Assembly: GCA_028534125.1 (NCBI GenBank)
Contig: CM052816.1
Coordinates: 8,062,001 to 8,126,000 of the forward strand
Direction of reading: 5' to 3'
Length of the DNA: 64,000 nucleotides
Source: Lama glama
Taxonomy: Eukaryota
Part shown: one piece after another, positions 1 to 61,709 of the stretch
Layout: the number at the start of each line of letters is the position of its first letter
Numbering within the stretch: the stretch's first letter is position 1
The notes under the pieces: generated by a model
The model's database searches: none
Told to the model about the DNA's origin: nothing
Seen by the model: only the letters and a program-made list of their open reading frames with translations
Program-made: the position numbers and the translations under genes

Positions 1-2289
1 CAAATTCCAAGCCAGTAGAAGTCTGCCTAGTCTCTAGGGACTTGCAGGCCTGGCTTTGACCCCAAAGTATGAAAGACAGGTCAAGCAGGTCCAAAGCTCA
101 GGGCAGAAAGAGCTCTGGGCTGCTGAGACCAGAGTCCATTTCTAAGTTTTTCACATGCAGAGTTTCTCAGCTGGCCCCTAGGTCAACCCCCAGCCTATGA
201 TTTCATACTCTTAACCACATCCTCAACTTGTGACTGTAATACTGCTCTTTGCTTACCCCCTTGTGATAGGAGACTCACTCTCCATGTTTTCATACTTGCT
301 GGCTCCTCCTCCCTTCACCTGTTGATTCTCTTGCTCTGATCATAAAGACCAGGAGAATACAACCGCATGCCAAGGGTCATCCCACCCCTCAGGACTCCTT
401 TCAGCCCCTCCACTCAATGCCCCACATTTCTGAGTCCCCTCAAAGTCCAGCTAAGTAGTGGAATTTCCACTCTTGTTCCTAAAAGCTGACAGTGAACTGT
501 CAGCCCAGGAGGGCCCCCTATTCTCAGGGCCCAGGAAAAGCCTACAGACACTGCAAATCCCAGACGCAGTGCTGGAGTAGCCCTCGGAGCAGTCAGAATA
601 GTAATAATGCACAAACTTTCCTATCCTGAAAATGTCTTTCATTATCTGTTCCCATTCCATTGTTTTAAGATGTCATTTGCTAACTAGAAATTTGTTCTCC
701 ATTTTTTAAGAAATTACTCAAGACCCCCACTCAGAGCCTGATTCACAATCATGAGATAATACCCCCACCAAAAGACTGGGCCAGTACAGGGCACTAAGGC
801 AAATGAAAGTCTGGGCCACCCCACATTCACTCCTGGACTACTTACTGAGGGCCTACAGTGTGCCCTAGGCGCAGAAACCCATATACACATACATTTTCCA
901 TGAGGATTCTGCAATCAGGACAGTGGCTCACAGTCCACCCTTCATTACTGTCCTCAAGGACCCTTGGTGCTGCAGCACCTAGGTCAGCCCATTACTTTAG
1001 CAATGAGGACCCTGCAGATGAGTCAGATAAGAGGACGTCAGGAATATGAATCCCTTGGCCTTATGTCTCCCATCGCCCCAAGGGCTCCACTTCTGGTCCT
1101 ACCTCTGCCCCCTGCTGATCTGAAAGTGACCTGGTCTGAATGGAGTTGAAAGGCTCTGCGGTCCCCTGGGTGCTGGAGAGAAGCCTGTTGACAAAGTCAC
1201 CAGCTGTCCCCAGCAGGAGCCAAGGAGAGCTCCTCCCTGCACCACTCACACTGGGAGAGCACTCCTGTCGCAAACCTAGGCAGCAACAGAACTTGGACCA
1301 TCAGGGAGCTCCAGGCCCAGCAGTAACAAGAGCCAGGGCACAAGACCTCAGTCCGCACCAGTACCAGGCAGAAGGAGCATCACTTGGGGGTAACGGTCAA
1401 GGGAAGAGGGGCTGGTGTCCTCATAATTTCTATGGAAAATGATACCATGAACTCAGTCACAGCAAGATCTTATAGAGCCCTGTAGTTGAGATTCAGGCTG
1501 GGGGAGGAGAGTCAAATCCAAGCTCTACTTCTTCACACCTGTGTGACCTTTAGGATTCTGTGCCTCAGTATCCCCATCTGTAAAATGCTGCTAATAGTAA
1601 TGTGGGAGAATTAAATGAGATAATGTATGTAAAGCAATTAGCCCAGGGCCTGGCACATAGTAAACATTCAACAAATACTTGTTGAATATAAGCTTGCCAC
1701 AATTAACTAAGGTACCACAGGTTCTCGTTTCATCCATATTCTGGCAGATACTATAAATTGCCCATTTTACAGGCAAGGAAACTGAGGCTAGGAGAAGGTA
1801 AGGGCCTATCCCAAAGTTACAGAGCTGACAGACACCCAGGTCAGTCTGAACCTCAGATCAGGGACAATAATGCCCCAGGCTACTCCGAATGCTTTGGGGG
1901 CAAGAGTACAGCACCAGGGCGTGATGGTGGGGCTCTGTAACTCCTGGGTCTAGCATGGCTCCTAGCTGACCCGGGTGCCTGAATCTGGGAAAGAAGCAGG
2001 AGGCCAGTCCCCAGTTTCTCAATCTCTCCTAGGGCCCACGCGTCCACATACTCCCCCTCCTTACCCCTTCCCAAAGTGTTAAAGATCAGCGTTCAAAGCC
2101 GGGGATCGTTGCTCCGAGAACCTGAGGGAGGAGGGGAGTTAGAGACCGGGCCGATCACAGCCCAGAGAAAACCGGTCCGGCTGCCTTACCCTTCCCGCAG
2201 CGGGGACCCGGCCTCTAACCCCCTCCCTCGCCAGACAAAAGTTTCCCCTGTTCGGGAGTAGGGGAGGGGGAGGGGGCATTCCTCGTGAG

Positions 2290-3500
2290 TGACATTATCC
2301 GTGACCTACAGCTGCCGCGCTGCCCTCGCCGGCACCCCGGCCTGCCCCCGGCCCCCGCGCGGTCCCCCACCCCTTTGTCCTCCCACCCCGGTGCGCGGGG
2401 CCGGGCAGATTCTCCCGGCCCGCCCGGCGCCCGCCCGCACCAAACTTGCGCCGGCGGCCGATTGGGCCCCGTGCGGCCTGCACGCCCGGCTCGGGCCCCG
2501 CCGGCTCGGCAACAGGGGACTGGCCGGCCCCGGCCCTCCCAGCCTCTTACCTGCCGCGGCTGGAGCGCCACCCGGGGAGGGGGCGCTCCCGGCCAGCCGC
2601 CGGACGCCTGGGTCCCCCCGGGCGTGCGTGCGCCGCTGGGCACTGGCCGGGGCCGAGGTTAACCCCTTCGCGGCCGCCTCCCGCCTCTCCCACCCCCGCT
2701 CCGCGCCGCAGCCGCCGCTGCCGCCGCCCGCCCCGCCTCCCGCTCGCTCGCTCTCCTCCCCCTCCCCCTTCCCGGCGCCCAGCCCCCAGTCCCGGCCCCC
2801 GGCACTGCTCTGGGGCAGCGCGCAGCCACCCCCTATCCCGCAGCAGGCGGCGGGGGTCTCCCCGAAGGCTGGAAGTTGGGGCGCTGCGCCTTGCCCACCG
2901 CGGGCCCGCGGAGCACAGAGGGGCGAACCCGCGCGCCGAGGGGCCCCCAGCCCATCTCTCCTTACCCCCTCCTGCTCCGGCGCCTACCTCCCCGAATCGC
3001 TGCGGTGGAAGCGGGGTTCGATCTCGTGACGGAGCGTGGGTGCCGGCCGTAGATCTGCTCGGGAGGCCCAGGCGGCCGGCGGGCGTTCGGCGAGCACCCC
3101 GGGGCGGGGGCCGGGGCGGGACCAGGAGCTGCTATCGGGGCTGGATTTCTCGGCTTCCACCCGGATTCTCCCTCGGCTCTCCCGGCCGATTCGGTGCTGC
3201 TCGGCGACCACGTGACGCGGGCTGCCTTTGACCCCAGTCTCGGAGCGGGTAGGGGGCGGGGGCCGGAGGGGGGTGTCAGATGTGGGACCCACGAGGGCCC
3301 GGGGCGGCTGCCTGGAGTCCCGGAGGTGGTGACCCCGGGGAAACAAAGCCCCGGGGAGGCCAACAAGTTATTCGGGGTCAAACAGGGAACAGCGCTGGGG
3401 GTCTAAGAGGCTTCAGAGAGAACCAGGGAGACAAAGACCCGCGCCCGCCGCGCCACTGAGGTCTCTGGGAGCACCCTGGCCGGCCTGAGGGGGCCTCCTG
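2290..3500 (-). promoter_or_regulatory. CpG island promoter, probably of NDST1 (transcribed leftwards)
   Basis: Very GC- and CpG-dense stretch with several GGGCGG boxes and an E-box (CACGTGAC at 3209-3216). Minus-strand splice donors lie inside it. The NDST1 assignment comes only from the conserved order NDST1-RPS14-CD74-TCOF1; no NDST1 coding sequence is in the window. Confidence 0.75.
2551..2760 (-). other. NDST1: Putative non-coding first exon (5' UTR) of NDST1; 5' boundary approximate
   Basis: Strong minus-strand donor GCAG|GTAAGA (plus strand tcttac|ctgc, GT at 2549-2550) inside the CpG island; identity by synteny. Confidence 0.55.
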
Positions 3501-5689: not shown

Positions 5690-6780
5690 GCCCTGCTCCT
5701 CCATCCCCTCAGGACCCACCCACATCTCCCAGAGCTTTGTGCTGGCAACTCCCCCTGCCCACACCTCCCCCTCAGCTTGTGTCCCCCACCACTGCCCACT
5801 TGACATGCTCCTTGGCTGCCCCAAGGTTCGTTTTATCCAATTCTGTAAGTCAAAGGCTGAACTCATTATCTTCCACCCAAACCTGCTTCTCCCCCTCCTC
5901 CTGTGTGTTCAATTCATATGCCTAGCCCAGAAATCTGACACCAGCTCCTTGTCCCCACCGCATTGCATTCACAGACCAGTTCTATTGGTTCTGCCTCCAG
6001 TTTTTTCTTCTCTAACCCAATCCCATTCCTTCCTCTTCATCACTACCACCCTAGTCCAAGCCACCATCTTGTCTTTGCCTTGGCCCATGTTAACAGCCCC
6101 TTAACTGCTCTGCCTCCCTCCCACTCTGTCTCCTCTCATACAACATCAAAAAGCTTATTTCTTACTTAAAACCACCAATGGCTTCCCATTGCTCTCAAGA
6201 TAAATTCTCCACCTTTTTGTCCAGCCTATCTCTTGTCTTGAAATGGCTTGCACCACTTTCCCCTTTACCTAATTCCCCATTAAAATTGTGGATTGCCTGG
6301 GTCTGAATGCCAGTTCTGCCGCTGACAAGTTGTGTGACCGTGGATCAGTTTTTCAACCTCTCTGTGTTCATCTCTAAACTGGGATAATAATAGCCTGTAC
6401 TTCATAGAGGCATTGTGAGAATTAAATGAGTTAAACATGTAAAGCCCTCAGAGTGGCGTCTATCATATGATAAGCATTATTAAAGTGTTAGCAAAATGAT
6501 TATTTGTGATCCTTTGGGCATCAGGTTAAATTTCATTTCCTCCTCGGGCTTCCCCTGTGCCCCTGACCCAGACCACTTCCTGGTCTACATGTCACAATCT
6601 CCCTCCATCACGCTTATAGTTATTTGTCAGCTGCCTCTCTAAACTGTAAGCTGTGTGTGGACAGGACCGTATTGGTCACAGACACAACTGAGTCCCGGAG
6701 CCCCACACAGTGCCAGGCACAGGGCAGGCAACCAGTACAAATTTGCTAACTAAACATATAAAATGAAAGTCAATGGATTC
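5690..6780 (+). mobile_element. L2 LINE remnant with an internal MIR (about 6290-6490)
   Basis: L2-type motifs (ctgaactcattatcttcc, ccaccctagtccaagccaccatc, tggcttcccattgctctcaagataaa) and an L2-type 3' end (cagtgccaggcacagggc). Confidence 0.6.
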
Positions 6781-19789: not shown

Positions 19790-20615
19790 TACCAGGGCCT
19801 GAGCTTGGTTCCCATCTTCTACCCCAGTCATGACCTTCCCAGGCTCTCCCATCTTAGGAAATGGCCCCACTGCCCACTCATTGCTCAAGCCTGGAACCTG
19901 GAATCATCCTCACCCCTGCAACCAATCCATCTGAAAATCCTATCGATTCTACTTCCAAAGTATCTCTCAGATCTGGCTATTGTCCTCCACATTCACAGCT
20001 GCCACCATGCTCCAAGCCACCATCATCTCTGACCTGCACAACGATCTTCACCTGATTCTCAAAAAAAGGCCAGCGTGGACCTTGAAATACACAAATCACA
20101 GCATGGTGCACCCTGCTTAAAGCTCTTCAGCCTTCTCTCGGTATGTAGACTGTAAAATACACTCCTTGCCAGGGCACCCCAGGCCCCTGGCCTCCTGCAT
20201 GATCTCACCCCTTTCCCTTCTCCTCGCCTGTCCCCACCTCCGTGCAGTCCCTCAGCTCTTCTCCCCCTCGGCAGCTTTTCCACTAGCTGTCCCCTCTGCC
20301 CCAGTGCCATTCCTCCTGCCCTCCTCATGGCTGCACCTCCTCCCCCTCTGGTCTCTTCCTCACAGTCCTGTCCCTGCTCCCTCTGAGAGCAAGCCCACTC
20401 TGCGATCTCCTCCAACCTGCCTGTTTCCTTCTCAGCACTGCTCACAATCCGTAACGATACAGTCGTTGGCCGGTTTGTGGGTATAATGCCTGGCTGTCTC
20501 CCCAACTGGACTGTGCCTTCACGTCTATGCTACTACTGCTTTATTGCTCACCAGTGCCTAGGACAGTGCCAGGCACACCGTGGGCGCTCAACAAACGTGC
20601 TAAACGGATAAATGC
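19790..20615 (+). mobile_element. L2 remnant (continues the L2 at about 18085-18145 that the L1 pair interrupts)
   Basis: L2 motifs and the 3' end cctaggacagtgccaggcacaccgtgggcgctcaacaaacg. Confidence 0.65.
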
Positions 20616-22499
20616 CCGGGACCTGTATCCTGGTACCACCAATCTATTGGGTGCTATTCTTCTCTCTGGGGTGACTCAGAGCAGGTCGGTCCTTCACAAG
20701 CAGATGCTGCCGTGTGGCAAAGTGCTCAGGGGCCCGAATCTGCTCTAGAAGGCTTGGTGGCGATCTCTGTCCACTTACTCCACTCTGAATCAGCAGAATG
20801 ACCTTGGAAATGTCCCTAACCTTCTCCCGCCCCAGTTTCCCAGTCTGGAAAATGAGGACAGTAATCTGAGCTCCCGGGGGTGTGATGAGATAGTAGGGGA
20901 GAATGTACACCAAGGCCACTTCTCAACCACGTCCAAGGTGGATGGCCTGACTGAAGTGCAGATTTACACACACACACACCCTCACACTTACACTCCTCAA
21001 CCCACTTCTGGGCTCAGAAACTACAGAGCCTCTTGCTAACTCTGCGGCCCTCAGCACCCCAGTGTACCAGCCCCAGCCAAGGCCTGGCCTTCCCTGTGGA
21101 GCGTGGAGATCAGACGCCATCTAGCGGACAGTCGGGCGAGAGCCGGCATTCCAACCCTCCTCTCCTCTCAGGGTGGGTAAGGCAGCTCCCTGGGGCCCTG
21201 CCCTGACCGTCCCCACTCAGACTGCCCCCACTCCACACAGCTGGGCCTGGGAGCAAACAGAGGGGCTGCCCATCAAGGCCCTCAGCCTCTCCCCAACGGC
21301 ATAAAGTCCGAACCCTGAGGCCCCAGGGGCCCACCCCCAGTCTTTGAGCTGCCCTCCCTCCCTTCCTTCCCCTCCAATCACACAGAAGATCCCCACAAGA
21401 GATCCTGAGTAATCTAAGTTTTCCTTTGGCTCAAGACCTTCCCACAAGCTGTTATCTCAGCCTGAGAATCCTCCCCACCATCTTCCCCCGACCTGACTGA
21501 CCCCTACTCCCACTCTGCATCTCTAACTAAATGGCACCTGCCCAGAGGACCCTGACCAAGCTAGAGCTGCCCTCCATTGCCCCACAGGCCCCTTAACCCC
21601 CTGTTGCTAAGCCCTCTTCACACACTCCATATTTCTGGCTCCTGCTCCCCATTAGACAAAGGCATTGACAGCAATCCCTGTAATGCATGCTAAGTGCTGA
21701 GAGGGTCCAGGGGCCATACGCTCAAACTGCAGGTGATTCTGTAACAAATCAGAAGCAGGTAGGTCCCAGCCTGTGGAGGACGAAACTGAGGGTTTCCAGA
21801 AAGGATGCAGGGTGAGACTTTTGGCTGGGCCCCATCTCCAAGCCCCAGCACCCACTAGGCTGCAGTTTCCTGGTTGTGTTTCTCTGGTGAACTGACTCAC
21901 CCTCTCTGGACCACAACTTCTTCTCCCCACCCTCCCCTTATTCTCTTTTGTACAACTTCCCTCCAAAGGGAGGAGGGCATAAAGCCCATGGGAAAATTGA
22001 AGTATGAATTGTTGCTAAGAATGGGAAGTACAGGGCCTTCCAGGCTGGGCTTGAGGGACCAGGAAAAGGGTTGGGGTTCTAAAGGCCAATTCCCTGTTTT
22101 TCTTTCATCCATTCAACAGATATTTAGAAAATGCCTGGATTCGAGATTAAAAGTATTGGGACTCTGGAGTCACTGTCTGGGCTCAGATCGTGGCACCATC
22201 CCTGATGGCTGTTGACTACTTGTTTCCTTAGTTGTAAAATGTAGGGGATAAAAATTTCTGCCTCCTAGTAAGGTTACGGGGAGGATTCAATGAGATGATA
22301 TATGTAACTCGCTTGGGACAGGGTCTGGCATGTCGGGTAAGCATTCAAAGTAAGGGCTGTGTCACTACTATTATTCACAGAGCAATGACAGTGTTGTCAC
22401 TGATGTCACGCTGCCTCTCCCCTGCCACCCTACACCCAGGGCCTCCCTTCTCCAGCACTCTGGTCTCTGTGGGTCCTGGCAGCCCCTCCTCAGTCCTCT

Positions 22500-25350
22500 G
22501 TCAGACTCCTGCTCAACACCTAAAGGACTTTCGCTGCTGCCCTCGGGAATTCCAGAACACCTGCAGTGGAATCTCCTCTATCCCAGTCTTTTCTCTCAAT
22601 GAGCCCCTCATGTCTGGGGAAACCTGCTCTCGCCTGAGGAGACTGCATTCCCCTGCAAGCATCCCAGGGGCTTCTCCTTCCTCTTCCACAGCCCCTGGAC
22701 ATGAGAACAAAAGAGGGAGGGAGAGGGAGAAATACCAGGCATGTTGTCCTCCCTGCTCCTCATTTGTCTGTTTCAGGCCAATTTCATTCCCTCCCTGCTA
22801 AAGGATGCTCCTTTTGAATTTTGTCTCCACACTGCAGCACCCATGACCCCACCTTGGTGCAGACTTCTACCAGCCCCCAGGTCGCACCCTCTCATCTTTG
22901 AGGGCTTGACCCTGGACTCAATGTCACTCTCAATTGCAGTTCTTGGTTATTTCAATATTCACATAGTCGATGCCGCCATCACCCTGCCCTCTGGTCCCCT
23001 GACCTGCTCCTAATGATCTTGTCCCCCAGGTCATCTCAGCTAGTCACTCCCATGGTCTGAAACGCCTCCCCACACCACTCTTAGTCTAACACCCTCAAAT
23101 CCCTGACCACCAGCTCAAAGTATCAGCATACACCTTGACTTCAACCATGCCTTGCTCCACTGGGACCTCAAACCCGTTGCTTCGCCACCTTTATGCTGAC
23201 CGTCACCCGCTTGACGCTTTCACTACCCCACTTATCCCAGCTTCATTGCCATGCTCAGTGGTGATAATCATTCCTATGCTTTCACCCTCAAATCCCCTGC
23301 ATCCCTCTCAAGTTGTCTTCTCTGGGCAAAACCATAACCCTGGTTAAATCCAACCCTCCACCTACTCCATTCCTGCATCCATGCAGCTGAACATGGCTGG
23401 AGAAAACCTCGAGTGGATGCTGCCCAGGCATCACCCTCTATTCCCCTAGACTTCAGTGACTATTTCAAACCTTTTCCTGCCTCCAATCCTCAATATCCCT
23501 TCACCCCAGCCACACAGCTGATCGCTTCCTACCTCCCTGCTGAGAATATTCTCAAGCTCCCACTCCCATGGGCACTTACCCTCCAGTGTCTTCCTTCTCC
23601 CCTTCTGCACCAATGTACTAACCACGCTCCTCTCTAAAGCTGGTCCCTCCATCTGTGCACTCGAGGTGGTCACCTCTTTCTACTCAAGGTCATGGCTCCA
23701 TTATCAAGTTTTCCCTCTCTACTAGACCACTCCCATTGGTGTACAAATATCTGTTCTGATGCAAGCTTAAAACAGAAGAAAGAAATGAACTACTTGATCC
23801 TATGTCCTTATTCTTTGCCCTTTTGCACACTTGCACAGCAAAATTCAAACGAGGTCTATAGCTCTCTTTCTTTCTTCCTTTAATCTATCCCATTCAAGCC
23901 TTTGCACATCCCACTCACCCCCATCACACACACACAATGGAACTGCCCTTGTCAAGGTCCCCAGCGGCCTCCAAGTTGCTCCATCAGTGATCATTCTCAG
24001 CCCTCACCTTACGTGACCTCTCAGCGCAAGGACACAGCTGCCTGCTCCCTTCTCCTTGATTCCCTTTCCTCCCCTGGCTTCCTGGATGCCTCCTCTCTTG
24101 GTTTCCCTCCTGTCTTACTGTTCTCTGCGTCTTTTTCCTTGGCTCTCTCCTGCCCTTATCCCCATGCTTTGAAGCTCAGTCCTCGGATCTCTGCTCCAGC
24201 GACACTCAGCCCCTCAGTGGTCACAAGCAGCCTCGTTATTTTAAATACCATCTAGATGCTGAAGACTCCCAAACTGACCCCTCCAGCCCAGATCCTCTGC
24301 TCAATTCCAGACTCATCTATCTCCCCCAAGATATCACATCTCCACTTAGATATAGAAGAAACATCTCAAACTCAGGCCTGAGACTAACACCTAATTTTCC
24401 CCCAAAATCTGTTGCACCATTAGCCTCCCCATCCCCCCGCAGATGGCAGCTCTGTCCTTCCAGTGCTCCAGCCTGAAATGCTAGGATCATCTTTGACAGC
24501 CCTTTCTCTCATGTCTCATGTCTAATCTACCAGGAAATCCTGTTGGATCTACTTTCAAAATGTGACCAAATTTTGAGCACTTCTTTCTATCCCCAACTAA
24601 TGCCACCTTGGTCTCAGCTACCAATATCTTTTGCCTCTTTAACGGTGACCCCTGTTTCCACCTTCACCTCTCACGCCCACCCCCACTGAGAGACTATTCT
24701 CCACAGACCATCTACAGTGATCTTATTAAATCGTAAGTCAGAGTCTGTCACTCCTCTGCCCAAAATCCTCCAGTGGCTCCACTTGGAGTAAAAGCCGAAG
24801 TCCCGACACTGACCTAAAAGCCTATATTATCTGCCCCCAGCACCCATGAGTTCTCATCATTACATCTTGTCGCCCACCTGTCTCCCCTCACTCATTCCAC
24901 TCCAGTCACACTGGCCTCCTTGCCCTTCCTAGAATATGGCCATGGTGCTTCCACCTTTGGGCCTTTGCACATGCTGTTCCCACTGCCAGTAATAATCTTC
25001 CCTTAGATATTGGCATGGCTTGCTCAATCTCCTCCTTCACACCTGCTCAAATCTCTCCTCAGCAAGGCTCTCTTATCCTCTCTATTTAATTCTGCACCTG
25101 CCCCACCCCTTCCCTCAGACCCTTTATATCCTTTATCTTGCTGGACTTGTTTATCTTTCATAGTACTGATCACCTTCTAACATAATAGAAAATTTTCTTA
25201 GATATTGTTCCTGCCCTTCTTGCCAGAAGGTAAACTCCAAGATACTAGGGGTCTTTATCTGGTTCGGTCATTGATGTATCCCAAGTATCTAGAAAAGTGC
25301 CAGATACATACTAGGCGATCAGTAAGTACTTACTGAATGATTGAATCAAC
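22500..25350 (+). mobile_element. Long, internally deleted L2 LINE with an endonuclease-region remnant
   Basis: ORF 22741-23013 contains IAVLGYFNIHIVD, resembling the APE-endonuclease LGDFNIH motif. L2 3'-region motifs follow, ending gtgccagatacatactaggcgatcagtaagtacttactgaatga. Confidence 0.7.
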
Positions 25351-26149: not shown

Positions 26150-26392
26150 AAGAATATAAATAGACCATTCTCAGAAGAGATGCAAATGCTCCAAAAAAAA
26201 ATCCATAAAGAGTTGTCTGACCTTACTAATCATGGGGAAAATACAATACAGCAAGGAATATATTTATTTACTCAGTGCAGCAAAAGTAGAAATTACCACC
26301 TTCCTGGGAGGCAGTTTAGCAACAAATATCAAAACTTAAAATACATATTCCTTTTGATATCTGGCAATTAACCCTGGAGGAAAGAACAGTAT
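26150..26392 (+). mobile_element. Old L1 (L1ME-like) fragment, left part; continues at about 29448-29560
   Basis: Degenerate ORF2-end sequence (aagaatataaatagaccattctcagaaga...gcagtttagcaacaaatatcaaaacttaaaatacatattcctttg) resumes right after the retrocopy (cctacatgttcaacaacagagaactggttaaac). Confidence 0.6.
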
Positions 26393-26408
26393 AAGTGTGT
26401 TCTTGATA

Positions 26409-29400
26409 GGTCCGACTACCGCCGCCACCTTCCAAGGAATCCGCCCTCTCCTGCCATTGCACTGGCTTGGTCGCCCAGAGACAAAGCCCCGCTGCCGCCA
26501 CTGCCACTGATCGGGTCCCCCACTGCCCCCCACCGGCTGGGCACCTCCTGTCCTGCGGCCGCCCGTCGCCCTAGGCCGCGCCTCTAGGTATTTGAGCACC
26601 AACTATATACATGCCAGGCACTGGAATTCAGAGAACCCCTGCCCTGCTAGAGCAGGCAAAAATGACCCAGCTGTGGAAACAGGGGCCCAGAGACGCTTAA
26701 AGCTTGCTCGGGGTCACACAGCCTGGACACTACAGAGCTGACATTCGAACCGAGAGAAGAGCAGCCGAAGGCGGAACTGGGCAGAGGGCGGGAGGTGAGC
26801 AGCGGCCTGAGAGGTCCCCGGCCCCCGCAGGCCCCAGAGCGGCGTCCTTCAGCCAGGAAGCTGAAGGAGCGCAGCCAGGCCTTCCACGCCGCCCGCGACG
26901 GCCCCGCCGACCACGCGCGCCTCCCGGGCAAGACGCGCGGCGGGCTCGCGGCCTACCGTCGCTGCTGGTCCGTGCTGCGGTGACATGCTCTTCTGCCTGG
27001 AGGACGCGGCCGGCCGCGAGCCCGTGGGCGTCACCATCCTGGAGGGCTGCACCGTGCACACGGTGGGGGCGGCCGAGGAGTTCGCCTTCGCCGTGCGCTT
27101 CGCCGGGGCCCGGGCCCGCACCTACGTGCCGGCAGCCGAGAGCCAGGCAGCCATGGAGGGCTGGGCTGAAGGCGCTGTGGCGGGCCAGCTTCGACGCCCT
27201 GGCCTGCGGCCGGCGGGGCGAAACCTGCAGCAGCAGCTGGCGGCTGTGCTGGCTGCGCTCAGCCCCGCCCCGCCGCCCCGAAGGGCGCCACCCCCGGCCC
27301 GGGCCGGGGCCGCGGCCGCCCCGCCGCAGTGCCTCTGCACCCAACGGGCCTCAGAACTCGGCCTCCTTCGCCTAGCGGCACGAGTGGTACGGACAGGAGG
27401 TCAGGGCGCTGTGGAGCCAGTGGCTCAGGAGGCAGGCCCCTCCTGAGGGAAATCGGTCAAGGCCAGACCTGAAGTCACCAGGGGTCCTGGATCTCGCGTC
27501 ACCTCAGCCCCAGACCCTGCTGACAGGCGCACCCCTGGGACACTAGGGGACCTGGTCGTGAGGGAAATCTTGCTTAGGGTCAGCCCTGAGGCCCCTGCTG
27601 GGCCTGCTTTCAGGGACTCAAGCTCTTTTAGGACCTCTGTAACTCGGAGAAACCCCAGGCTTGAGGGGGCCATCGTGCCTGATTCTCAAGAGAATCCAGG
27701 CTCTGGATGAGCCTCAAGCAGCCAGAGGGCTGGTTTCCAGGGAAGCGTAGCCCCAAACCCAGCCCTGGGCATGCCTTGGTCGCCTGGCCCCTACCGACCA
27801 GCATAAGCCTGTTACTGGCAATAGGCCTCAACTGGGGCGACTCCAGACTGGTCCTCATGTGGGCAGAGGAGTCTGGGCTCCGCCACACCACAGCTGGGCC
27901 TGATCTCGTTATGCTTGGCCCTCCAGGGGAGCTGTCTTGCTTGGGCCCCTGCCTGCCTCCAGAGGCAGCAGGTGCAGGAGGTGGCACAGGCGTGGGTCTT
28001 CATGCGTGACCAGTACGGTGAGATCGCCTGGTCCCCAGGGCTTCTGGAGTGGGGCTGACGCAGGACTTTACCCCGGGGCCTCAGCCAGGCCTTGAGGTGT
28101 GCTTCTGGGACAGTGGTGGCCCTCTGGCCTTGGGCCATTTCTGTGTTCTCTTGGCAGCTCTCATGCTCTCCCAACACTCCTTAACCACACATCCTTCTGT
28201 CTTCTCCTGGAGCCAGCTTTTCGACCCCTGGCCTGGGGAAGGGCCTCTCAGGAGCTCACTTGACCTTGTCCAGTCCTGGGCTGGGCAGCTGTGGCCTGAG
28301 CTGACTTTCCAGCAGGTTCCCCCATGGAGGAGAGGCCATAAGCTGACTCACAGCCCAGAAAGGGCCCAGGTGCCAATCTGATAAGGGCAAAAAAGCAGCT
28401 GCGAAGCCATGTTTGGTTTCCAGAACCCTCTTTCTTCCTATCGCAGCCCTTCTCTGAGCTCACAAACTCAGTCCTCCTCTTACCCACAATGTTCCCACTG
28501 GGAGACCAGGTCTCACTTTGCTTCTAGACAACTGCTACTTCACTGTTTTCACTCAACCGCGGTGGCCATTCTTCATCCAGGGAGAATCTCAGGGGGCTGG
28601 GGCACTCCTGGCCCTCAAGTTGGTCATGTTTACAGTCCTCGGTGCCCCTAAATGGGGACCCCCTGAGGGCACTTCCACCCCAATCTTTATTTCCCCAGAG
28701 GTTTCCTCTTGGTAACAGACTGGGCCCTTGGCCCCTTCCTGCTGTCTTTGGAGACCCCCAGACTTGGGAAAAAATGGGGGGCTGTCTGTGTGTCTGCAAT
28801 CATCAGCTCACTACTGGCTCAGTTGACTGGGGCTTCAGTTTTAATTTAATTTTAATACTTAGGGGTTTTTTTCCCTAGCAATAAGTCTTGGTGTTTTCAC
28901 TGCTTTTGTTTCTTGTTGGCTAGTGGGAAGGGCTAGGGTGCCCTGGTTCCAGGCTTGGCCAGTGGAGGAGGGGGATAGTTGGCACTACCCACAATGAGAG
29001 GACATAGAGCCTTAGATGGAGACAAAGTCACTTCAAGAATCTCACCTGGCTCTTTGCCTTCTCCCTGGCAAGCCCTGCTCTCCTGCAGGTGCCTCTGGGG
29101 GTCTTGGTACACTTCCCATCCCTCTCTTCACCAAGTCCTGAGTGGTGGGGGGTGAGGATGGCAGCTCTTGTCCATAGGCTCTGGGTCTCAGGGGTGTTAG
29201 GGTTAGTGCCCAGTGCCATATCCTGGCCAGACCCAGCTGGTGGTGTGAAGTGTTGGCCCCAGTTCTGATGTAGGTTTACAAGCCCTAAAGGTACAATTCT
29301 ACCCCGCTTCCCCAGCCAAAGCACAACATGGGGTCAGGCTGCCTCTGGAGTTGGGCAGGGGAGAGAGAATAGGCAGCCTGGGAGAGGGATATAAACGCTA

Positions 29401-29433
29401 AAATAAAATAAAAGTTTATCAAGTAAAAAAAAA
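26409..29433 (+). pseudogene. PHETA1: Processed pseudogene (retrocopy) of PHETA1/FAM109A (Sesquipedalian-1, PH-domain adaptor)
   Basis: 26855-27446 translates in shifting frames as (R)KLKERSQAFHAARDGPADHA...AYRRCWSVLR / MLFCLEDAAGREPVGVTILEGCTV...AAEEFAFAVRFAGARARTYVPAAESQAAMEGW / LKALWRASFD / LQQQLAAV / PPRRSASAPNGP..SFA*RHEWYGQEVRALWSQWL, matching my recollection of PHETA1 end to end. The start ATG is AGG (26855), there are several frameshifts, and TAG at 27373 falls in the F&H motif. A ~2 kb 3' UTR has AATAAA at 29402 and 29407, then an A tail at 29425-29433. TSD: aagtgtgttcttgata (26393-26408) / aagtatgctcttgata (29432-29447). Confidence 0.9.
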
Positions 29434-30433
29434 GTATGCTCTTGATAATTTGAAAAGTGTCCTCTTTATATTTGAAAATTCCAGAAATACCCTACATGTT
29501 CAACAACAGAGAACTGGTTAAACAATGATACCACTATACAGAGAAATATGTAGTAACAAAAAAATAGTGCAATATAGGCATTCCAGGTTGCTTGCAAGGA
29601 AGAGGATTGTGTTGCTGGGGACAGAGGTGAGAGGAGTAGGGTGTTTTGTTTTTACCTACTTTTTGATAACTAATTTTTTATTTGTGTGAATGCTTTAATA
29701 TTCAAAATAATAAATGAAATTTTAAATATGTTTTAAAATGTTGTAGAGTTCTATTAGTTGTTATGGGAGGATGTCCACAACATTGTGTGGAAAAATAAAG
29801 TTACCAAATAGCATATAGAATACAATTTCATTTACATAAGATTGAATATTACATACTAAAAATATAGGTACAGATATAAGTATAGAAAGTCATTTCTGGA
29901 ATAATGCTCCAATTTGATAATAGTGGTATCTATAGGAGAAAGAATTTAGAGATGATTTTTACTTTTTGCTACATACCGTTCCGTATTGTGAGGATTGTTC
30001 ATAATAAGCATGGATTTTTTTAAACCATCAAGGAAAAATATTGTAAGGTTATTTTCTTTAAAAAAAAAAAAAAAGGAAGTGGCTCTTCTAAATGTATATG
30101 ATGTTTGGAAAGAACATACACCAAGGAGTTAATAGTGGTGGGTAAGACTGTCATTTCTTTTTTATTTTTTGTTCTCCTTTCTGCCTGTTTCTCTTTTATG
30201 GGTTTTCTGTAAGTAATTACTTTTTGTAAAGGGGAAAGGGAGCACTACATTTAAAAAAAAAATCCTCCCTAAATCGAGCTGCAGTTGTTCAGTGGCATCA
30301 ATCACAGTGCACAAAGGGTTATAGGCTATTTTGCATAATTGCTCATTTTATTAAAAAAATTATATATGTATGTGGTAAGTATATAGTTCATTATGTGGGC
30401 TTTATGTGTATAGGTGTATATGTATATATATAT

Positions 30434-30465: not shown

Positions 30466-30809
30466 TACATAGTCTATTTCTTGGCTCTTCTCCATCTATA
30501 CAGTCTCCCAGTCCGTCAAGGTCCTTAAATATTGTTATTAGAGGGATATACGGAACTAGCTATTAAACATAGGCTTTTAAGTCAGAATTGCAAATTGTGC
30601 ACAGATGTGCAATCTCAGTTAAAAATCCCTTTCTTTAAAAAGTCAAAACAGCATCTATATGATAATTTGGTGAGAGTTAAATGAGGAAATGCATACAAAT
30701 CGCTTAGTCCAGGCTAGCATATAATGGTAGTATTGAATAACTTATTCTTATTTTGCCGAATACACAATAGGTGAAAGTCTACAGCACCGCAGTTTTGTTG
30801 TTGTTGTTC

Positions 30810-31460
30810 ACCTCCGCGCCACGAGATGCGCTGTCGCCTCCAGGCTGAGCAGGCCCAGGGTCAGGGGGACGGAAGTTCTTCTAGCCGCGGCCGCGCCATC
30901 TTAGAACACAGGCTTGCCTCACCAACCGGCTGTGGCTCCTTAATGCCTTCTTAGAGGCAGACCCGCTGGCCGCAACACCAAGCCCCTTAGGCGCTCCTTT
31001 AAGTAAACCGTCTTCTCCAGGGTGTCTAATCTCCTTCCAAACACTAAAGGCGGTGACTTCCGGGAGCCGGCCTCACCCCGTGACCTTACACGTACACTTC
31101 CGGGGGCAGGACGTGACCCGTGACCCCGCCCTCTTCCACTCTCTCTTTCCGGTGGTGGAGTCTGGAGAAGACCATCAGGTAGGAGATCCGGGCGAGGACA
31201 ATCGAGTGGCATCCTGCGGCACGGGGGCTTAGCGGGGCAGTGGTCGCGGAGCTGGGGTCTTTCTGCGGAAGCCAAGTCAGGTACCAGGCGAGAGGAGCAC
31301 GGCCGGCCGACCGAGACTCTAGTTCGCGCCCTGTCTGGGTAGCCGGCGGTCTTGCTTCAGGGAAAGGCGTATAAAGTTGGGGTGAGTTCGGGTCTAACCT
31401 CAAAGGCATAGGCCTCGCTACGACCACAGCCGAATTCAAGCGGCAGCACAGCGTGGTTGG
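30810..31460 (+). promoter_or_regulatory. RPS14: RPS14 CpG-island promoter with a TCT/5'TOP initiator
   Basis: Polypyrimidine initiator ctctctttcc at 31141-31150, ETS/GABP sites ACTTCCGG at 31056 and 31096 and ACGGAAGT at 30869, YY1 motif CGCCATCTT at 30894. Confidence 0.9.
31143..31178 (+). other. RPS14: RPS14 exon 1 (non-coding, 5'TOP)
   Basis: ctctttccggtggtggagtctggag...CAG|GTAGGA donor; start position approximate. Confidence 0.85.
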
Positions 31461-32063
31461 GAAAGAGCGGGGGTCTTAGTCTGATGTGGGCTCCCACCTC
31501 TACTGTGCCAGCTTCTTCCGGTGCGGTTGCAGGCTGGGCTCCTGATTTCTATAGTTTGTTCTCGAATCTGGAAAATAGGAATAGCTGTCGCGTGGGTCCC
31601 ACAGGGATGTAATGTGGATTCAGGAAGGAAATGCAAGGAAAACTGCCGTTTGTTGGGTGCTGCTTAAATCTGAGTGCTAAGTCGGGCACGTTGCAAATTC
31701 TGGGCGCTCAAGGAAGGCCTCTGGAAGCCAGAAATTAGGGTAGGGGCTGCACGTCAATGTTCAGTACCTGCTGTGAACCTATTCCCCCTGAAGGCAGCGA
31801 TGGGGGGCACTCAGAAGTCTTGCCAGGGTGGGTTGGGAGGTGCTGAGGAGGCTTAACTTCCACTAAGAGACACCTAGGAATCCTGGTTGCTGAAGTGTAC
31901 ATGGCTTTGGGAGGCTGGGGGCAGGAGAGCGAATGCTCAGTTGTGTCCCGCGCACCTTTCCCAGAGTAAGTTCTCCCAGAGAAGAAAAGCTTGCGGTTTT
32001 CTTGTAATACTTGGAAAAAGGGGTTCTTGTCCTTAACATTGGGATTCTTTTTCCTTCCCTTAA

Positions 32064-32216
<153 letters not shown>

Positions 32217-32549: not shown

Positions 32550-32852
<303 letters not shown>

Positions 32853-34006: not shown

Positions 34007-34219
<213 letters not shown>

Positions 34220-54469: not shown

Positions 54470-55503
54470 GTACATGGAATGGGGGCTTTGGGGAGGCAGG
54501 GTTTCTGGGCGCTCCCTCAAGCTCCCCTGGAGCTGCAAAGGGTAGGGCTTTGAGCACTCCCCAATCCAAGCACAGGACTCTCCCAGCCTCCCTCTGCGCT
54601 TACTCGTCTCTCCTGCCTGTTTTTCTGGGCGTGGCTGCCCCCAGCCCCCATCCTCCATTCTGTCTGTACAGAGTCCTCCCTTCAGAAGGTAACCTCCCTT
54701 GTGGAGGATGGTACTGTGCAAGGGGACCTGAAGCAAAACCCACCCAAAACATCCCAAGAGTCATGGCAATGACCTTCCCCATCCAGCACTGCACCCCTGT
54801 GGGTTCCCGGGAGGGGGCTGGGCCCATGATTCCCACCTTTTAGAGGGCTCCTCTCTGAGGCCATACAGCCAGCAGGTACCAGACCAGAGAGCCTTGGGGT
54901 TCTTCCATATCATGGGCAACACCAGGACTTTCAGCCCTAAAGCCTTAAAGGGGCTGTGTTCTTATCCTGGTGCTAATTTGCTGTGCAACTTTGAGCAAGT
55001 CTCTTCTCTCTGGGCTGTTTCAGAAGTGGAAGATCAATGGCCCACTCCACTCTGGGCCTCAGTGTCTCCATCGTAAATTCAGAGAGGGCACCGTAGATGC
55101 TCTCTTGACCAACTCCCAGCTAATGTCTGAATCCCCTCTACAACACCTCCCTCACATGGTAACCCCCACTTCTACTTAGATATGCCCCCAGTAATGGAAG
55201 CTCAGACTTACCAAGGTGTCCACTGCTTTTCTCTAGAAATCAGAATCTTAGGTGCAATTCTGAACCCCAACAGGCATTGAATGTCAGAAGAAATCATGTT
55301 CTGGGATGAATTAACCACATAGCCTCTTTGATCCAGGACCTTACCGGTCCAGGCCCGTTTCCCCATCCGTGCAATGGGTAGAAGTACAGCCACTTGGGCA
55401 GGAGGCATTAGACTGACAGCAGTGGCATGTGGATCTCTGGTTCGGCTGAGACTCTGGCCCAGAGCCCACTGACTCACTATGTTCATCGTGCCTGTCGCTT
55501 CAG

Positions 55504-55695
55504 TACTGACCAAGTGCCAGGAAGAGGTCAGCCGCATCCCCGCCATCCACCCGGGCACGTTCAGGCCCAAGTGCGACGAGAATGGCAACTATATGCCGCT
55601 CCAGTGCTATGGGAGCATCGGCTACTGCTGGTGCGTCTTCCCCAACGGCACCGAGGTCCCCCACACCAGGAGCCGCGGGCACCATAACTGCAGTG
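55504..55695 (+). CDS. CD74: CD74 alternative exon 6b (p41, thyroglobulin type-1 domain, 192 nt, frame-preserving)
   Basis: [63 protein letters not shown], with six Cys and the CWCV motif. Confidence 0.98.
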
Positions 55696-56203
55696 GTAAG
55701 CAGTGGCCACTGCGCCAGGAGCAGGAAGGACCAGGAAGGCTGAGGGGCAGGAGGTCCCTCCTGGCACGCACGGGGCCAGGATACTCAAGGCGGCAGGCAA
55801 CTCCTGGGGAACAGCCACTCAGCCATGCATCCACCCACTTGTGCATTTCTCATCTGTTTGTGCATCTATTATTTTTCTCCTTATGTCCACACTTAACCTA
55901 CTTACTCATTGATCCTTCAGTCATTCCTTTTGTGACTTTTACCCATCCACGCATGCATCCAGGAGTCCTCCAGATCCAACCATCTGATTTCATCACCCCT
56001 TCCTTGGCCTGGCTTACTCGATTGCCCGGCCATACTTCATTGGCACTTGCTGTTATCCAACAAGCATCCTTCCATCCGCAATGGCTCTACCAGGTGCCAG
56101 GCCTGTGGCGAGGCTGGGAAGAATTAGCCCCTCCCAGGCCCCTCACCAATGGGTGCTGTGGGCTGGACTCTAGCTAACAAGTAGCCTTTCTGCTCCTTTG
56201 CAG

Positions 56204-60562: not shown

Positions 60563-61169
60563 CTAAGGGAAGAAAGGAAACTTGCTAAACAACAGATGTT
60601 AATCTTAAGTGCTGGGGTCAACGTGGAGAGACAGACAGGGCAGGTCTCCGGGGGCCCTGTCCATGGATTGACCACCTGGACTACAACCGTTTTTCTTTAA
60701 CTCACTTTTTAAAACTTCCACACATTTATTTTAAAAAGACACTTTCTACCTGTAAAATGGGAATGAAATGTCACCTACTGTAGATGGCTGGTGTGAGAGT
60801 TAGACAAGGCCCTGTCGCACAGCGAGGTGAGGGAGGGGCGGCTGTTGGCGAGGAGCCGGGACCCCGGGGAGCCTGAGCTGCAGGTGTGCGTGGCTGTGGC
60901 GGCTGTGAGTGTGCAGGGGCGGGGGCGGGGGCGGGGGCGGGGCGGGGGGGAGCTCCAAGAGCGGAACACGCCCTGGAGCATGATCACCTCCCTGGCCGTA
61001 GTGGCCCTGGAGGTCCAGGGCTGGGTTCTGGCTTTGCCAGTCCTGCCCCCATGACCCTGACGACCACACGCAGCACCCCCTGCGCTGGCTGAGGGCCGCC
61101 CGCCCGCCTGCCCGCGTGGTGACCGCAGCCCCCCCACAGCCGGGGCAGTGTGCTCGGCTGGCCACTTAC

Positions 61170-61709
61170 TCTTGTCGGATTTCTTCTTCTCCTTCTTGCT
61201 CTTCGGGTTGCCTTCGTCTCCACCCTCACCCTTCGCCGTCCCTGGCCCCCCTTTCGGCTTCTCCTTGGCCCCTTGGGAGCCGGGAGACTCCTTCTCTTTC
61301 TTCTCCTTGATGTTACCACTCACTCCGTCCCTCTTGGATTTCCCCTTGGGAGTCCTGGGGGCCTTTTCTGGGGAGGGAGCACACTCCCTGCCTTCCCCGG
61401 CCGCCAGCAGCTTCTTCTTCTTGCTCTTGGAGGCCTTGGCGGTCGTCTGGTCTTCTGACAGCTTCCGCTTGTGGCCCAGCCGGCCCTTCTGGCCGCCCTC
61501 CTTGGCAGCATCCACAGCCTTCTTCCTCTCCTGCTCCAGCAGCTCCGTCAGGACCTTCACCACCGAGGCCTGCACCTGCGTGTCGCTCAGGGGCCAGGGC
61601 TCGCTCAGGAGGCGCCGGGTGATGTCGCTCTGCAGAGCCAGAGTGGAGGCCTGAGGGCTCCCAGGTCCCTTCTGGGGCTTCTGAGGTGTGGTGCTAGCCT
61701 CTCTTCTGC
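61170..61709 (-). CDS. TCOF1: TCOF1 (treacle) exon
   Basis: [10 protein letters not shown]...[45 protein letters not shown]...KKEKKKSDK; 540 nt, canonical splice sites. Confidence 0.96.

What the first reader, a model, noticed from the sequence alone, without database searches (positions are those of the whole stretch)
26780..27400. Pseudogene CDS keeps a CpG island and appears to have evolved towards G/C
Seen in sequence: despite frameshifts and a lost start codon, 26780-27400 is dense in CpG, while the 3' UTR of the same insert is CpG-poor. Against my recollection of human PHETA1, most replacements are weak-to-strong changes: ATG>AGG, Y>H (cac), T>A (gcc), C>R (cgc), F>L (ctc), L>P (ccg, twice), F>S (tcc), N>D (gac), Y>C (tgc), S>G (ggc), I>T (acc). 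Established knowledge: methylated retrocopies normally lose CpG by C>T decay. Inference: the segment is unmethylated in the germline and has undergone strong GC-biased gene conversion (a local recombination hotspot), or it was co-opted as an orphan CpG-island promoter/enhancer near RPS14.
Basis: partly seen in the sequence, partly recalled or inferred. Interest (0 to 1): 0.7.

Follow-up and report, generated by a model that had tools for sequence, protein, structure and literature searches.

The report
GC-gaining CpG island in dead PHETA1 retrocopy
A dead, reverse-transcribed copy of the PHETA1 gene upstream of RPS14 has kept and even enlarged its CpG island while its tail decayed, the footprint expected of an unmethylated, recombination-prone spot; it is a clean single example of a known process.

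Summary
Window 26410-29426 is a full-length processed retrocopy of PHETA1 (sesquipedalian-1). Four parental exons are joined without introns, there is an A-tail, and the ORF is disabled. The retrocopy lies 1.4 kb upstream of the RPS14 promoter CpG island; its own CpG island lies 3.3 kb upstream.

The finding region has 79 CpG in 621 bp (observed/expected 0.87). The contrast with the CpG-poor 3'UTR is largely inherited from the parent mRNA. The informative signal is retention: 32 of 42 parental CpGs survive in the PH-domain part, against 6 of 32 in the 3'UTR.

I polarised the differences with 20 non-camelid PHETA1 proteins. The PH part then shows 20 weak-to-strong against 3 strong-to-weak changes on the retrocopy lineage. 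The distal 3'UTR, polarised with an older retrocopy, shows 5 against 16 (Fisher p=4e-5).

The weak-to-strong rate is about ten times the baseline, so lack of methylation alone is not enough. The GC-ward tract is narrow (about 26710-27160) and strand-symmetric.

Best reading: a germline-hypomethylated CpG island acting as a PRDM9-independent recombination hotspot with GC-biased gene conversion. Methylation, recombination and transcription were not tested. It is a new member of a known kind.

The parts
26410..29426 (+). Full-length processed retrocopy of PHETA1 (sesquipedalian-1) mRNA
   Evidence: It matches four exons of the parent on C34 (L006 603-797, 2094-2176, 2984-3128, 5008-7767; all with GT/AG borders), joined without introns. 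The parent ORF is 230 aa with a PH domain (Pfam E=6.7e-20). The best named relative is Camelus sesquipedalian-1 at 95%.
29427..29433 (+). Remnant of the poly(A) tail (the A run spans 29425-29433; seven A beyond the parental end)
   Evidence: The parent continues with unrelated sequence after ...CAAGTAA.
26389..26409 (.). Possible degenerate target-site duplication, 5' copy (3' partner at 29434-29448)
   Evidence: GTAT...TCTTGATA occurs on both sides. A second similar word 19-35 nt further downstream makes the assignment uncertain.
26410..26587 (+). Part derived from parental exon 1 (5'UTR, from the promoter CpG island); decaying
   Evidence: Against the parent there are 8 W>S and 25 S>W differences. 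10 of 29 parental CpGs are kept. G+C falls from 0.80 to 0.71.
26588..26813 (+). Part derived from parental exons 2-3 (an exonised dispersed repeat, MIR-like by my recognition); it has 8 CpG where the parent has 0
   Evidence: Six dispersed copies show that the retrocopy keeps an ancestral TTCGAACC CpG that the parent lost, and that it gained others.
26701..27500 (.). CpG island of the retrocopy
   Evidence: 800 bp, G+C 0.73, 88 CpG, o/e 0.82.
26710..27160 (.). Core tract of GC-ward substitution
   Evidence: Three 150-bp bins give 31 parent-W/retro-S against 11 parent-S/retro-W. The neighbouring bins are balanced or AT-ward.
26855..27444 (+). Disabled CDS-derived part (PH-domain part is 26855-27187)
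   Evidence: ATG>AGG, seven indels and a TAG at 27373. Pfam finds no domain in the longest frame.
27445..29426 (+). 3'UTR-derived part, decaying towards A/T
   Evidence: 68 W>S against 111 S>W relative to the parent. 6 of 32 parental CpGs are kept and 15 are now TG or CA. On the retrocopy lineage in the last ~530 nt there are 5 W>S and 16 S>W.
30801..31600 (+). Neighbouring CpG island, presumably the promoter of the RPS14 (uS11) gene; its exons lie on the + strand within ORFs at 32064-32216, 32550-32852 and 34007-34219
   Evidence: island. (Pfam Ribosomal_S11 in three ORFs, covering profile positions 1-22, 22-73 and 68-96).

Best explanation
An old, full-length PHETA1 retrocopy carried the CpG-dense coding exon of its parent to a new site upstream of RPS14.

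The CpG-dense core (about 26700-27500) stayed, or again became, unmethylated in the germline, so it escaped CpG decay. As an unmethylated CpG island it behaved as a PRDM9-independent ('default') recombination hotspot. Repeated GC-biased gene conversion, together with a raised local mutation input, fixed A/T-to-G/C changes in a tract of about 450 bp. This raised G+C, created new CpGs as a by-product, and extended the island into the adjacent repeat-derived 5'UTR.

The short exon-1 piece and the 3'UTR, which lie outside this tract, decayed towards A/T like ordinary methylated pseudogene DNA.

Shown here: the retrocopy, its CpG retention, and the polarised, localised, strand-symmetric W>S excess with an elevated rate. 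Inferred: hypomethylation, recombination and conversion bias.
For: 1. Retrocopy anatomy is established.

2. CpG retention. In the PH part 32 of 42 parental CpGs are kept, only 3 are now TG or CA, and 14 are new. In the 3'UTR 6 of 32 are kept and 15 are TG or CA.

3. Polarised substitutions in the PH part on the retrocopy lineage: 20 W>S, 3 S>W, 9 S<>S and 2 W<>W. They fall at residues held by 18-20 of 20 non-camelid PHETA1 proteins. The retrocopy lineage in the distal 3'UTR has 5 W>S, 16 S>W and 3 S<>S. Fisher p=4.2e-5.

4. Rates. W>S is 20 per 96 W sites, against 5 per 241 at baseline. That is 20 observed against 2.0 expected (Poisson 6e-14). S>W is 3-6 observed against 13.2 expected. The implied equilibrium G+C is 0.90 against 0.27. 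A tenfold rise in W>S cannot come from lack of methylation alone.

5. Changes that conversion bias does not affect are also raised: S<>S is 11 of 238 against 3 of 289 (p=0.013). This fits a mutagenic hotspot.

6. The tract is narrow (26710-27160) and is flanked on both sides by AT-ward decay within the same insert.

7. The W>S changes are strand-symmetric: T>C 9, A>G 7, T>G 2, A>C 2. They are not enriched for CpG-creating changes (9 of 20, against 39 of 96 possible).

8. Literature. Hypomethylated CpG-rich loci show gBGC-inferred recombination enrichment in 39 of 52 placental mammals despite intact PRDM9 (PMC11161765; abstract and section 8 read). Dog CpG islands gained substitutions by gBGC, and non-methylation attracts recombination (PMC4350167; abstract).
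Against: - There are no methylation, recombination-map, polymorphism or chromatin data for this locus. The one attempt to lay reads failed.
- Counts are small. The baseline rests on about 530 nt, polarised by parsimony with a single diverged outgroup copy, and 12 sites were left unresolved.
- Synonymous differences in the CDS (5 in the PH part, 12 in the rest) are unpolarised.
- In the second half of the CDS (27188-27444) the bias is weak (10 W>S against 8 S>W), although the CpG island continues there.
- Camelids are not among the species named in PMC11161765 (no occurrence in the main text or in the 4 held supplements). Default-hotspot use in this lineage is therefore assumed, not known.
- A sustained or recurrent hotspot over tens of millions of years is needed.
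- A purely mutational W>S bias specific to unmethylated or transcribed CpG islands is not excluded.
Confidence: 0.6

Rival explanations
1. Hypomethylation plus a local mutational bias, without any conversion bias. The island is unmethylated and perhaps transcribed in the germline. A CpG-island-associated or TSS-associated mutational process supplies excess A/T-to-G/C and G<>C mutations, which then fix neutrally.
For: S<>S changes, which gBGC does not favour, are about 4.6-fold raised. The total rate in the PH part is about twice that of the distal 3'UTR. A hypermutation peak at germline-active TSSs is reported for human (PMC13712754; abstract only).
Against: The same abstract attributes the G+C excess near TSSs to gBGC together with mutation bias, not to mutation alone. 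S>W changes are fewer than baseline although mutation input looks higher (3-6 against 13.2 expected). That calls for a fixation bias or a very strong protection effect. No TSS is demonstrated here.
Confidence: 0.17
2. Co-option. The island has become an orphan CpG-island promoter or enhancer, for example for a non-coding RNA or for RPS14 regulation. Selection for CpG or G+C content or for binding sites maintains and enlarges it.
For: It is a bona fide CpG island 3.3 kb upstream of the RPS14 island. Retrocopy-borne CpG islands can act as promoters: PPP1R26P1 in RB1 (PMC3839921 and PMC4122923; abstracts). Many expressed retrocopies use CpG-island promoters (PMC4772013; passages).
Against: There is no transcript, CAGE or chromatin evidence. 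W>S changes are not enriched for CpG-creating ones (9 of 20 against 39 of 96). Changes are spread evenly over both strands and many codons rather than concentrated in motifs. A directional W>S bias is the signature of gBGC, not of selection. This rival is not exclusive of the best explanation, because an active promoter would also be unmethylated.
Confidence: 0.12
3. Artefact or mis-assignment. The differences would be assembly errors in GC-rich DNA, alignment errors, changes that really occurred in the parent, editing of the source mRNA, or ectopic conversion from another GC-rich copy.
For: GC-rich DNA is hard to sequence. One of the 21 apparent W>S differences did turn out to be a parent-lineage change (codon 21).
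Against: - The PH-part alignment has only two small indels.
- The 20 W>S changes are at residues held by 18-20 of 20 outgroup mammals, so the parent state is ancestral.
- Fifteen DNA runs under 5 organism labels from several studies hold 0.81-0.89 of the sampled words of the 3.2-kb stretch. This is weak evidence, because the share is not localised.
- T>C and A>G are equally common, which excludes A-to-I editing of one strand.
- The own-genome search finds no third copy closer than the parent that could be a donor.
Confidence: 0.04

Closest known systems
PRDM9-independent ('default') recombination hotspots at germline-hypomethylated CpG islands, detected through gBGC substitution signatures (Joseph et al. 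2024, PMC11161765; dog CpG islands, Berglund et al. 2015, PMC4350167)
   Same: It is an apparently unmethylated CpG-rich locus with a localised peak of equilibrium G+C, an elevated substitution rate and low CpG decay.
   Different: Those studies are genome-wide averages over conserved loci. This is a single locus whose CpG island arrived by retroposition of a coding exon, so the ancestral sequence is known from the parent gene. Recombination and methylation were not measured here, and camelids were not found among their species.
CpG islands delivered by retrocopies, e.g. PPP1R26P1 in RB1 intron 2, and 104 human intronic CpG islands of retrocopy origin (Kanber et al. 2013, PMC3839921; Rademacher et al. 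2014, PMC4122923; abstracts read)
   Same: A processed retrocopy carries a parental exonic CpG island to a new site, where its epigenetic fate depends on sequence and context.
   Different: Those cases were defined by measured methylation, imprinting and promoter use. Here nothing is measured, the copy is intergenic, and the notable feature is the directional G+C gain relative to the parent.
gBGC-driven accelerated regions (human accelerated regions; Fxy/Mid1 at the mouse pseudoautosomal boundary; 'BGC islands' of Cohen, Kenigsberg and Tanay 2011).
   Same: A short tract with clustered, strongly W>S-biased and accelerated substitution that is unrelated to function.
   Different: Those are conserved or functional sequences. 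This is a dead pseudogene, so purifying selection cannot confound the pattern.
Ordinary processed pseudogenes
   Same: Intron loss, A-tail, disabled ORF, and AT-ward, CpG-losing decay of the 3'UTR and of the exon-1 piece.
   Different: The CDS core does the opposite. It keeps 76% of the parental CpGs and gains G+C.

Membership tests
Processed pseudogene (L1-mediated retrocopy) | Parental exons joined exactly at the splice junctions, without introns | tested here: met
   Four exons with GT/AG borders on C34 are contiguous in the window.
Processed pseudogene (L1-mediated retrocopy) | Poly(A) tail at the parental cleavage site | tested here: met
   The A run at 29425-29433 follows ...CAAGTAA, downstream of the AATAAA signal.
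Processed pseudogene (L1-mediated retrocopy) | Target-site duplication | tested here: inconclusive
   There are degenerate GTAT..TCTTGATA words at 26389-26409 and 29434-29448, and a competing match further downstream.
Processed pseudogene (L1-mediated retrocopy) | Disabled reading frame | tested here: met
   The start codon is lost, 6 of the 7 indels shift the frame, and there is a TAG. Pfam finds no domain in the longest frame.
CpG island | At least 500 bp, G+C at least 0.55, CpG o/e at least 0.65 | tested here: met
   26701-27500: 800 bp, G+C 0.73, o/e 0.82.
Germline hypomethylated region | Low CpG>TpG/CpA decay relative to neighbouring DNA of the same age | tested here: met
   3 of 42 parental CpGs are now TG or CA in the PH part, against 15 of 32 in the 3'UTR.
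Germline hypomethylated region | Unmethylated CpGs in germ-cell bisulfite data | not testable with these tools
   No methylome was available.
gBGC tract / recombination hotspot | Localised excess of polarised W>S over S>W substitutions | tested here: met
   20 against 3 in the PH part, and 5 against 16 in the distal 3'UTR (p=4.2e-5). The tract is 26710-27160.
gBGC tract / recombination hotspot | W>S substitution rate above the neutral rate, not merely a lower S>W rate | tested here: met
   0.21 against 0.021 per W site; 20 observed against 2.0 expected.
gBGC tract / recombination hotspot | Strand symmetry of the bias | tested here: met
   T>C 9, A>G 7, T>G 2, A>C 2.
gBGC tract / recombination hotspot | Elevated crossover or DSB rate; derived G/C alleles at higher frequency than derived A/T alleles | not testable with these tools
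   There is no map and there are no polymorphism data. Read laying failed.
Orphan CpG-island promoter or enhancer | Transcription start, H3K4me3 or open chromatin at the island | not testable with these tools
This is no evidence either way.

The most novel reading that the evidence does not exclude
The PHETA1 coding-exon CpG island may be a portable, sequence-autonomous unit that is both unmethylated and a recombination hotspot. Wherever it is retroposed it would re-establish hypomethylation, attract default (PRDM9-independent) recombination, and be driven GC-ward.

Cetacean 'sesquipedalian-1-like' proteins carry mostly W>S-type replacements, and four of them are identical to those of this copy (Y11H, F39S, Y48C, S54G). 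There are two possibilities:

- If that cetacean gene is an independent retrocopy, the same sequence has followed the same course twice.
- If it is the orthologue, the island has persisted since before the camelid-cetacean split.
Probability: 0.25. Interest if true: 0.65.

Novelty: new member of a known kind. Interest (0 to 1): 0.4.

Why it matters
A retrocopy is a natural transplant experiment. The inserted sequence is known from the parent gene, the date is old, and no protein function constrains it. This one shows, within a single 3-kb insert, a CpG-dense core that kept its CpGs and gained G+C beside pieces that decayed normally.

That supports two ideas that are mostly argued from genome-wide averages. 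The first is that CpG density alone can maintain a germline-unmethylated state at an ectopic site for tens of millions of years. The second is that such sites are driven GC-ward, most simply by recombination-linked biased gene conversion, even in a mammal that appears to have a PRDM9-like gene.

There are also practical points. CpG-island-bearing retrocopies are not neutral clocks. Their W>S-biased acceleration can mimic positive selection. Such orphan islands can be mistaken for promoters.

Tried and rejected
- **Laying reads.** I therefore have no read-level check of the assembly, no polymorphism data and no RNA coverage. The RNA runs' small shares (0.05-0.12) are not evidence of transcription.
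- **Metagenome scan.** A scan for PHETA1 DNA outgroups gave 243 pattern matches, none confirmed. There is therefore no DNA outgroup for synonymous or UTR sites other than the older copy on C2.
- **Earlier findings of the scan.** Nothing was found on this genome, gene or sequence.
- **Six-frame Pfam scan of a long stretch.** I scanned 104 ORFs instead.
- **Supplements of PMC11161765.** No camelid, cow or pig names were found in the 4 files held, so underscore-joined names may have been missed.
- **A-to-I editing of the source mRNA.** Rejected, because T>C (9) is as common as A>G (7).
- **Ectopic conversion from another copy.** Rejected for this assembly. Only the parent (83%) and a 3'UTR-only copy (77%) match.
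- **Selection for CpG creation.** Not supported: 9 of 20 against 39 of 96 possible.
- **Orthology with the cetacean 'sesquipedalian-1-like' genes.** Unresolved. Changed positions overlap at 5 of 10 (hypergeometric p=0.08), and no genomic context was available.
- **PRDM9 status.** A PRDM9-like locus exists, but I did not establish whether it is complete.
- **Literature.** No paper was found with all four terms pseudogene + GC-biased gene conversion + retrotransposed + CpG. Processed pseudogene + CpG island + biased gene conversion gave 4 papers; I opened one of them, which was not relevant. No title listed for PHETA1 or FAM109A with pseudogene or retrocopy concerns a PHETA1 retrocopy.
Full report
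**What is there**

The window is G000:C1:8062001-8126000 of a 2.35-Gb mammalian assembly. A search of the same genome with window 26700-29400, and then with 26200-26830, found one homologous multi-exon locus on contig C34.

Blast and inspection of the parent locus (L006) show four exons with canonical GT/AG borders: L006 603-797, 2094-2176, 2984-3128 and 5008-7767. In the window they lie end to end, from 26410 to 26587, to 26813, and then to 29426. The copy ends at the parental cleavage site, downstream of the AATAAA signal, and is followed by an A run (29425-29433). Degenerate matching words (GTAT..TCTTGATA) flank the insert, but the target-site duplication cannot be fixed with certainty.

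The parent's last exon holds a 230-aa ORF with a PH domain (Pfam E=6.7e-20). Its relatives are named sesquipedalian-1 / PHETA1, and the best named match is Camelus bactrianus at 95% identity. The feature is therefore a full-length processed retrocopy of PHETA1 in a camelid-like genome.

Its reading frame is dead. ATG has become AGG at 26855. There are indels of -2, +1, +5, -7, -66, -13 and -24 nt, and a TAG at 27373.

Downstream on the same strand lies an intron-containing uS11 (RPS14) gene. Pfam Ribosomal_S11 matches three ORFs between 32064 and 34219, behind a CpG island at 30801-31600.

**The observation**

Window 26780-27400 has 79 CpG in 621 bp, G+C 0.77 and CpG o/e 0.87. The block 26701-27500 is a CpG island by the usual criteria. 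The 3'UTR-derived part has o/e 0.25, 0.21 and 0.05, and the flanks have 0.09 and 0.15.

One correction is needed. This contrast is already present in the parent mRNA (CDS o/e 0.92, 3'UTR o/e 0.18), so the retrocopy inherited it. What is informative is what happened afterwards:

| Part | Parental CpGs still CpG | Now TG or CA | Other notes |
|---|---|---|---|
| PH-domain part (26855-27187) | 32 of 42 | 3 | 14 new CpGs |
| 3'UTR | 6 of 32 | 15 | |
| Exon-1 piece (26410-26587) | 10 of 29 | 8 | |

In addition, the repeat-derived exons 2-3 have 0 CpG in the parent and 8 in the retrocopy.

**Direction of change**

Unpolarised counts (parent W / retro S against parent S / retro W) are as follows:

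| Part | W>S | S>W |
|---|---|---|
| PH part | 21 | 6 |
| Rest of the CDS | 14 | 18 |
| 3'UTR | 68 | 111 |
| Exon-1 piece | 8 | 25 |

I polarised the coding differences with 20 named non-camelid PHETA1 proteins. The PH domain is almost invariant among them.

- In the PH part, the retrocopy lineage has 20 W>S, 3 S>W, 9 S<>S and 2 W<>W. One of the three S>W is a third-position change assigned together with its codon.
- One difference (codon 21) belongs to the parent lineage.
- Five synonymous differences stay unpolarised.
- In the rest of the CDS the retrocopy lineage has 10 W>S and 8 S>W.

For a neutral baseline I used a second, older, 5'-truncated PHETA1 retrocopy on contig C2. It is 77% identical to both the parent and this copy, and it serves as an outgroup for the last ~530 nt of the 3'UTR. 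There the retrocopy lineage has 5 W>S, 16 S>W and 3 S<>S. The parent lineage has 5, 5 and 3, plus 2 W<>W. Twelve sites are unresolved. PH part against distal 3'UTR gives Fisher p=4.2e-5.

**Rates**

- Per W site, the W>S rate is 20/96 = 0.21 in the PH part, against 5/241 = 0.021 at baseline. That is 20 observed against 2.0 expected (Poisson 6e-14).
- S>W is 3-6 observed against 13.2 expected.
- The implied equilibrium G+C is about 0.90 in the PH part and 0.27 in the distal 3'UTR.
- Changes that a conversion bias cannot favour are also more frequent: S<>S is 11/238 against 3/289 (p=0.013).

From these small numbers, my rough inference is a three- to four-fold higher mutation input combined with a population-scaled conversion bias B of about 2-3. 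The uncertainty is wide.

A 150-bp sliding count places the GC-ward tract at 26710-27160 (31 against 11). On its left it is bounded by strong AT-ward decay (26410-26559: 7 against 24). On its right the counts are balanced or AT-ward.

The W>S changes are strand-symmetric (T>C 9, A>G 7, T>G 2, A>C 2). They are no more likely to create a CpG than chance allows (9 of 20 against 39 of 96 possible sites). New CpGs therefore look like a by-product of G+C gain without decay.

In the repeat-derived part, six dispersed copies of the same repeat family (MIR-like; that name is my recognition, not a tool result) give further detail. The retrocopy kept an ancestral TTCGAACC CpG that the parent lost, and it gained further CpGs. 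The island has thus spread into sequence that is CpG-free in the parent.

**Age**

3'UTR divergence from the parent is 11.6%. About 0.05-0.06 substitutions per site lie on the retrocopy lineage in the distal part. With commonly quoted mammalian neutral rates of 1-2.2e-9 per site per year (established knowledge), this means roughly 25-60 million years.

At the three assessable codons where the camelid parent has a lineage-specific residue (21, 125, 128), the retrocopy has the residue of other mammals. It also lacks 24 nt that give camelid PHETA1 its C-terminal extension. The insertion therefore predates these camelid-lineage changes.

**Explanation**

The pattern has five elements: CpGs protected from decay; a W>S rate far above neutral; an S>W rate below neutral; a tract of a few hundred bp; and strand symmetry. 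This is the pattern described for germline-hypomethylated CpG islands that serve as PRDM9-independent recombination hotspots and undergo GC-biased gene conversion.

- Joseph et al. 2024 (PMC11161765; abstract and section 8 read) infer recombination enrichment at such loci in 39 of 52 placental mammals. They conclude that gBGC in hypomethylated regions explains the GC-richness of CpG islands.
- Berglund et al. 2015 (PMC4350167; abstract) reach the same conclusion for dog CpG islands.
- Retrocopy-borne CpG islands whose epigenetic fate depends on sequence and site are known from PPP1R26P1 in RB1, and from 104 human intronic islands (PMC3839921 and PMC4122923; abstracts).

My best reading (confidence 0.6) is that the CpG-dense coding exon kept an unmethylated germline state after retroposition and has been a default hotspot, continuously or repeatedly. 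The short, isolated exon-1 piece and the CpG-poor 3'UTR were methylated and decayed.

The genome does hold a PRDM9-like locus on C35, with an SSXRD exon, two PR/SET exons and a zinc-finger ORF of 251 aa. I did not establish whether it is complete. According to PMC11161765, an intact PRDM9 does not exclude default hotspots.

**Rivals**

1. *Hypomethylation with a purely mutational W>S bias (0.17).* The raised S<>S rate and a reported germline TSS hypermutation peak (PMC13712754; abstract) speak for a mutational component. The deficit of S>W despite higher input argues for a fixation bias.
2. *Co-option as a promoter or enhancer (0.12).* This is untested and is compatible with the best reading. 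There is no enrichment of CpG-creating changes.
3. *Artefact, parent-side change, RNA editing or ectopic conversion (0.04).* These are countered by the gap-poor alignment, the outgroup polarisation, the strand symmetry, the absence of any donor in the assembly, and the presence of most of the stretch's words in 15 DNA runs under 5 organism labels. The last point is weak, because the share is not localised.

**What could not be done**

- No reads were laid, so there is no read-level check of the assembly and there are no polymorphism or expression data.
- There is no methylome and no recombination map.
- There is no DNA outgroup for synonymous sites or for most of the UTR.
- No other mammalian genome was available to test whether the insertion is shared.

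**A lead**

Cetacean proteins named sesquipedalian-1-like (P0040, P0045, P0046, P0074) differ from canonical PHETA1 mostly by W>S-type replacements. They share Y11H, F39S, Y48C and S54G with this retrocopy. Changed positions overlap at 5 of 10 (p=0.08). I could not decide whether this is orthology or parallel GC-ward drift of an independent copy.

**Verdict**

It is a well-defined single-locus example of a known process. It is of moderate interest, chiefly as a natural transplant experiment for CpG-island autonomy and default-hotspot gBGC.

Noticed in passing
L004 1478-2012 (G000:C2:23183830-23184341, minus strand): A second, older, 5'-truncated PHETA1 retrocopy holds only the last ~545 nt of the 3'UTR. 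It is 77% identical to both the parent and the window copy. I used it as an outgroup.
   Followed up: partly
window 26588-26813; parent L006 2094-2176 and 2984-3128: PHETA1 5'UTR exons 2 and 3 derive from a dispersed repeat (MIR-like by my recognition; 6 copies at 70-76% in the window and loci). The exon-3 reading frame matches the N-terminal extension of a sloth isoform (P0034; 52% over 90 aa, E=3e-21), so the exonisation is old.
   Followed up: partly
parent L006 around 5710-5733; window 27444: Camelid PHETA1 ends in an extra EGGGEA, whereas most other mammals end at ...AQP. The 24 nt that encode this extension are absent from the retrocopy, which suggests an insertion in the camelid parent after the retroposition.
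   Followed up: partly
proteins P0040, P0045, P0046, P0074 (cetacean 'sesquipedalian-1-like'): These are apparently intact 224-240-aa PHETA1-like proteins in toothed whales, plus a low-quality one in minke whale. They carry 15-23 PH-domain replacements, mostly of W>S type, and four are identical to those of the camelid retrocopy. It is unknown whether this is an orthologue or an independent copy.
   Followed up: partly
L016 1147-6309 (G000:C35, about 26.883-26.888 Mb, minus strand, 12 kb from the contig end): A PRDM9/PRDM7-like locus has an SSXRD exon, two PR/SET exons and a terminal ORF of 251 aa with only a few C2H2 fingers. I did not look for a KRAB exon. Gammaretrovirus-like gag ORFs (Gag_MA, Gag_p30) lie a few kb downstream in L015. 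A second SSXRD hit is on C37.
   Followed up: partly
window 2001-3400; 55501-55700; 60801-61300: There are further CpG-island-like blocks. The first is large (1.4 kb, G+C 0.74, 151 CpG) and is presumably another gene's promoter.
   Followed up: no
window about 20000-25200: There is a sustained strong negative GC skew (-0.38 to -0.48, C-rich on the + strand) over about 5 kb, interrupted at about 20400-22600. No tandem repeats were found.
   Followed up: no
window 26410-26587: The piece copied from the parent's promoter-proximal exon 1 was the most CpG-dense part at insertion (29 CpG in 195 nt), yet it decayed (10 kept, 25 S>W against 8 W>S). This suggests that a short isolated CpG cluster does not protect itself.
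   Followed up: partly
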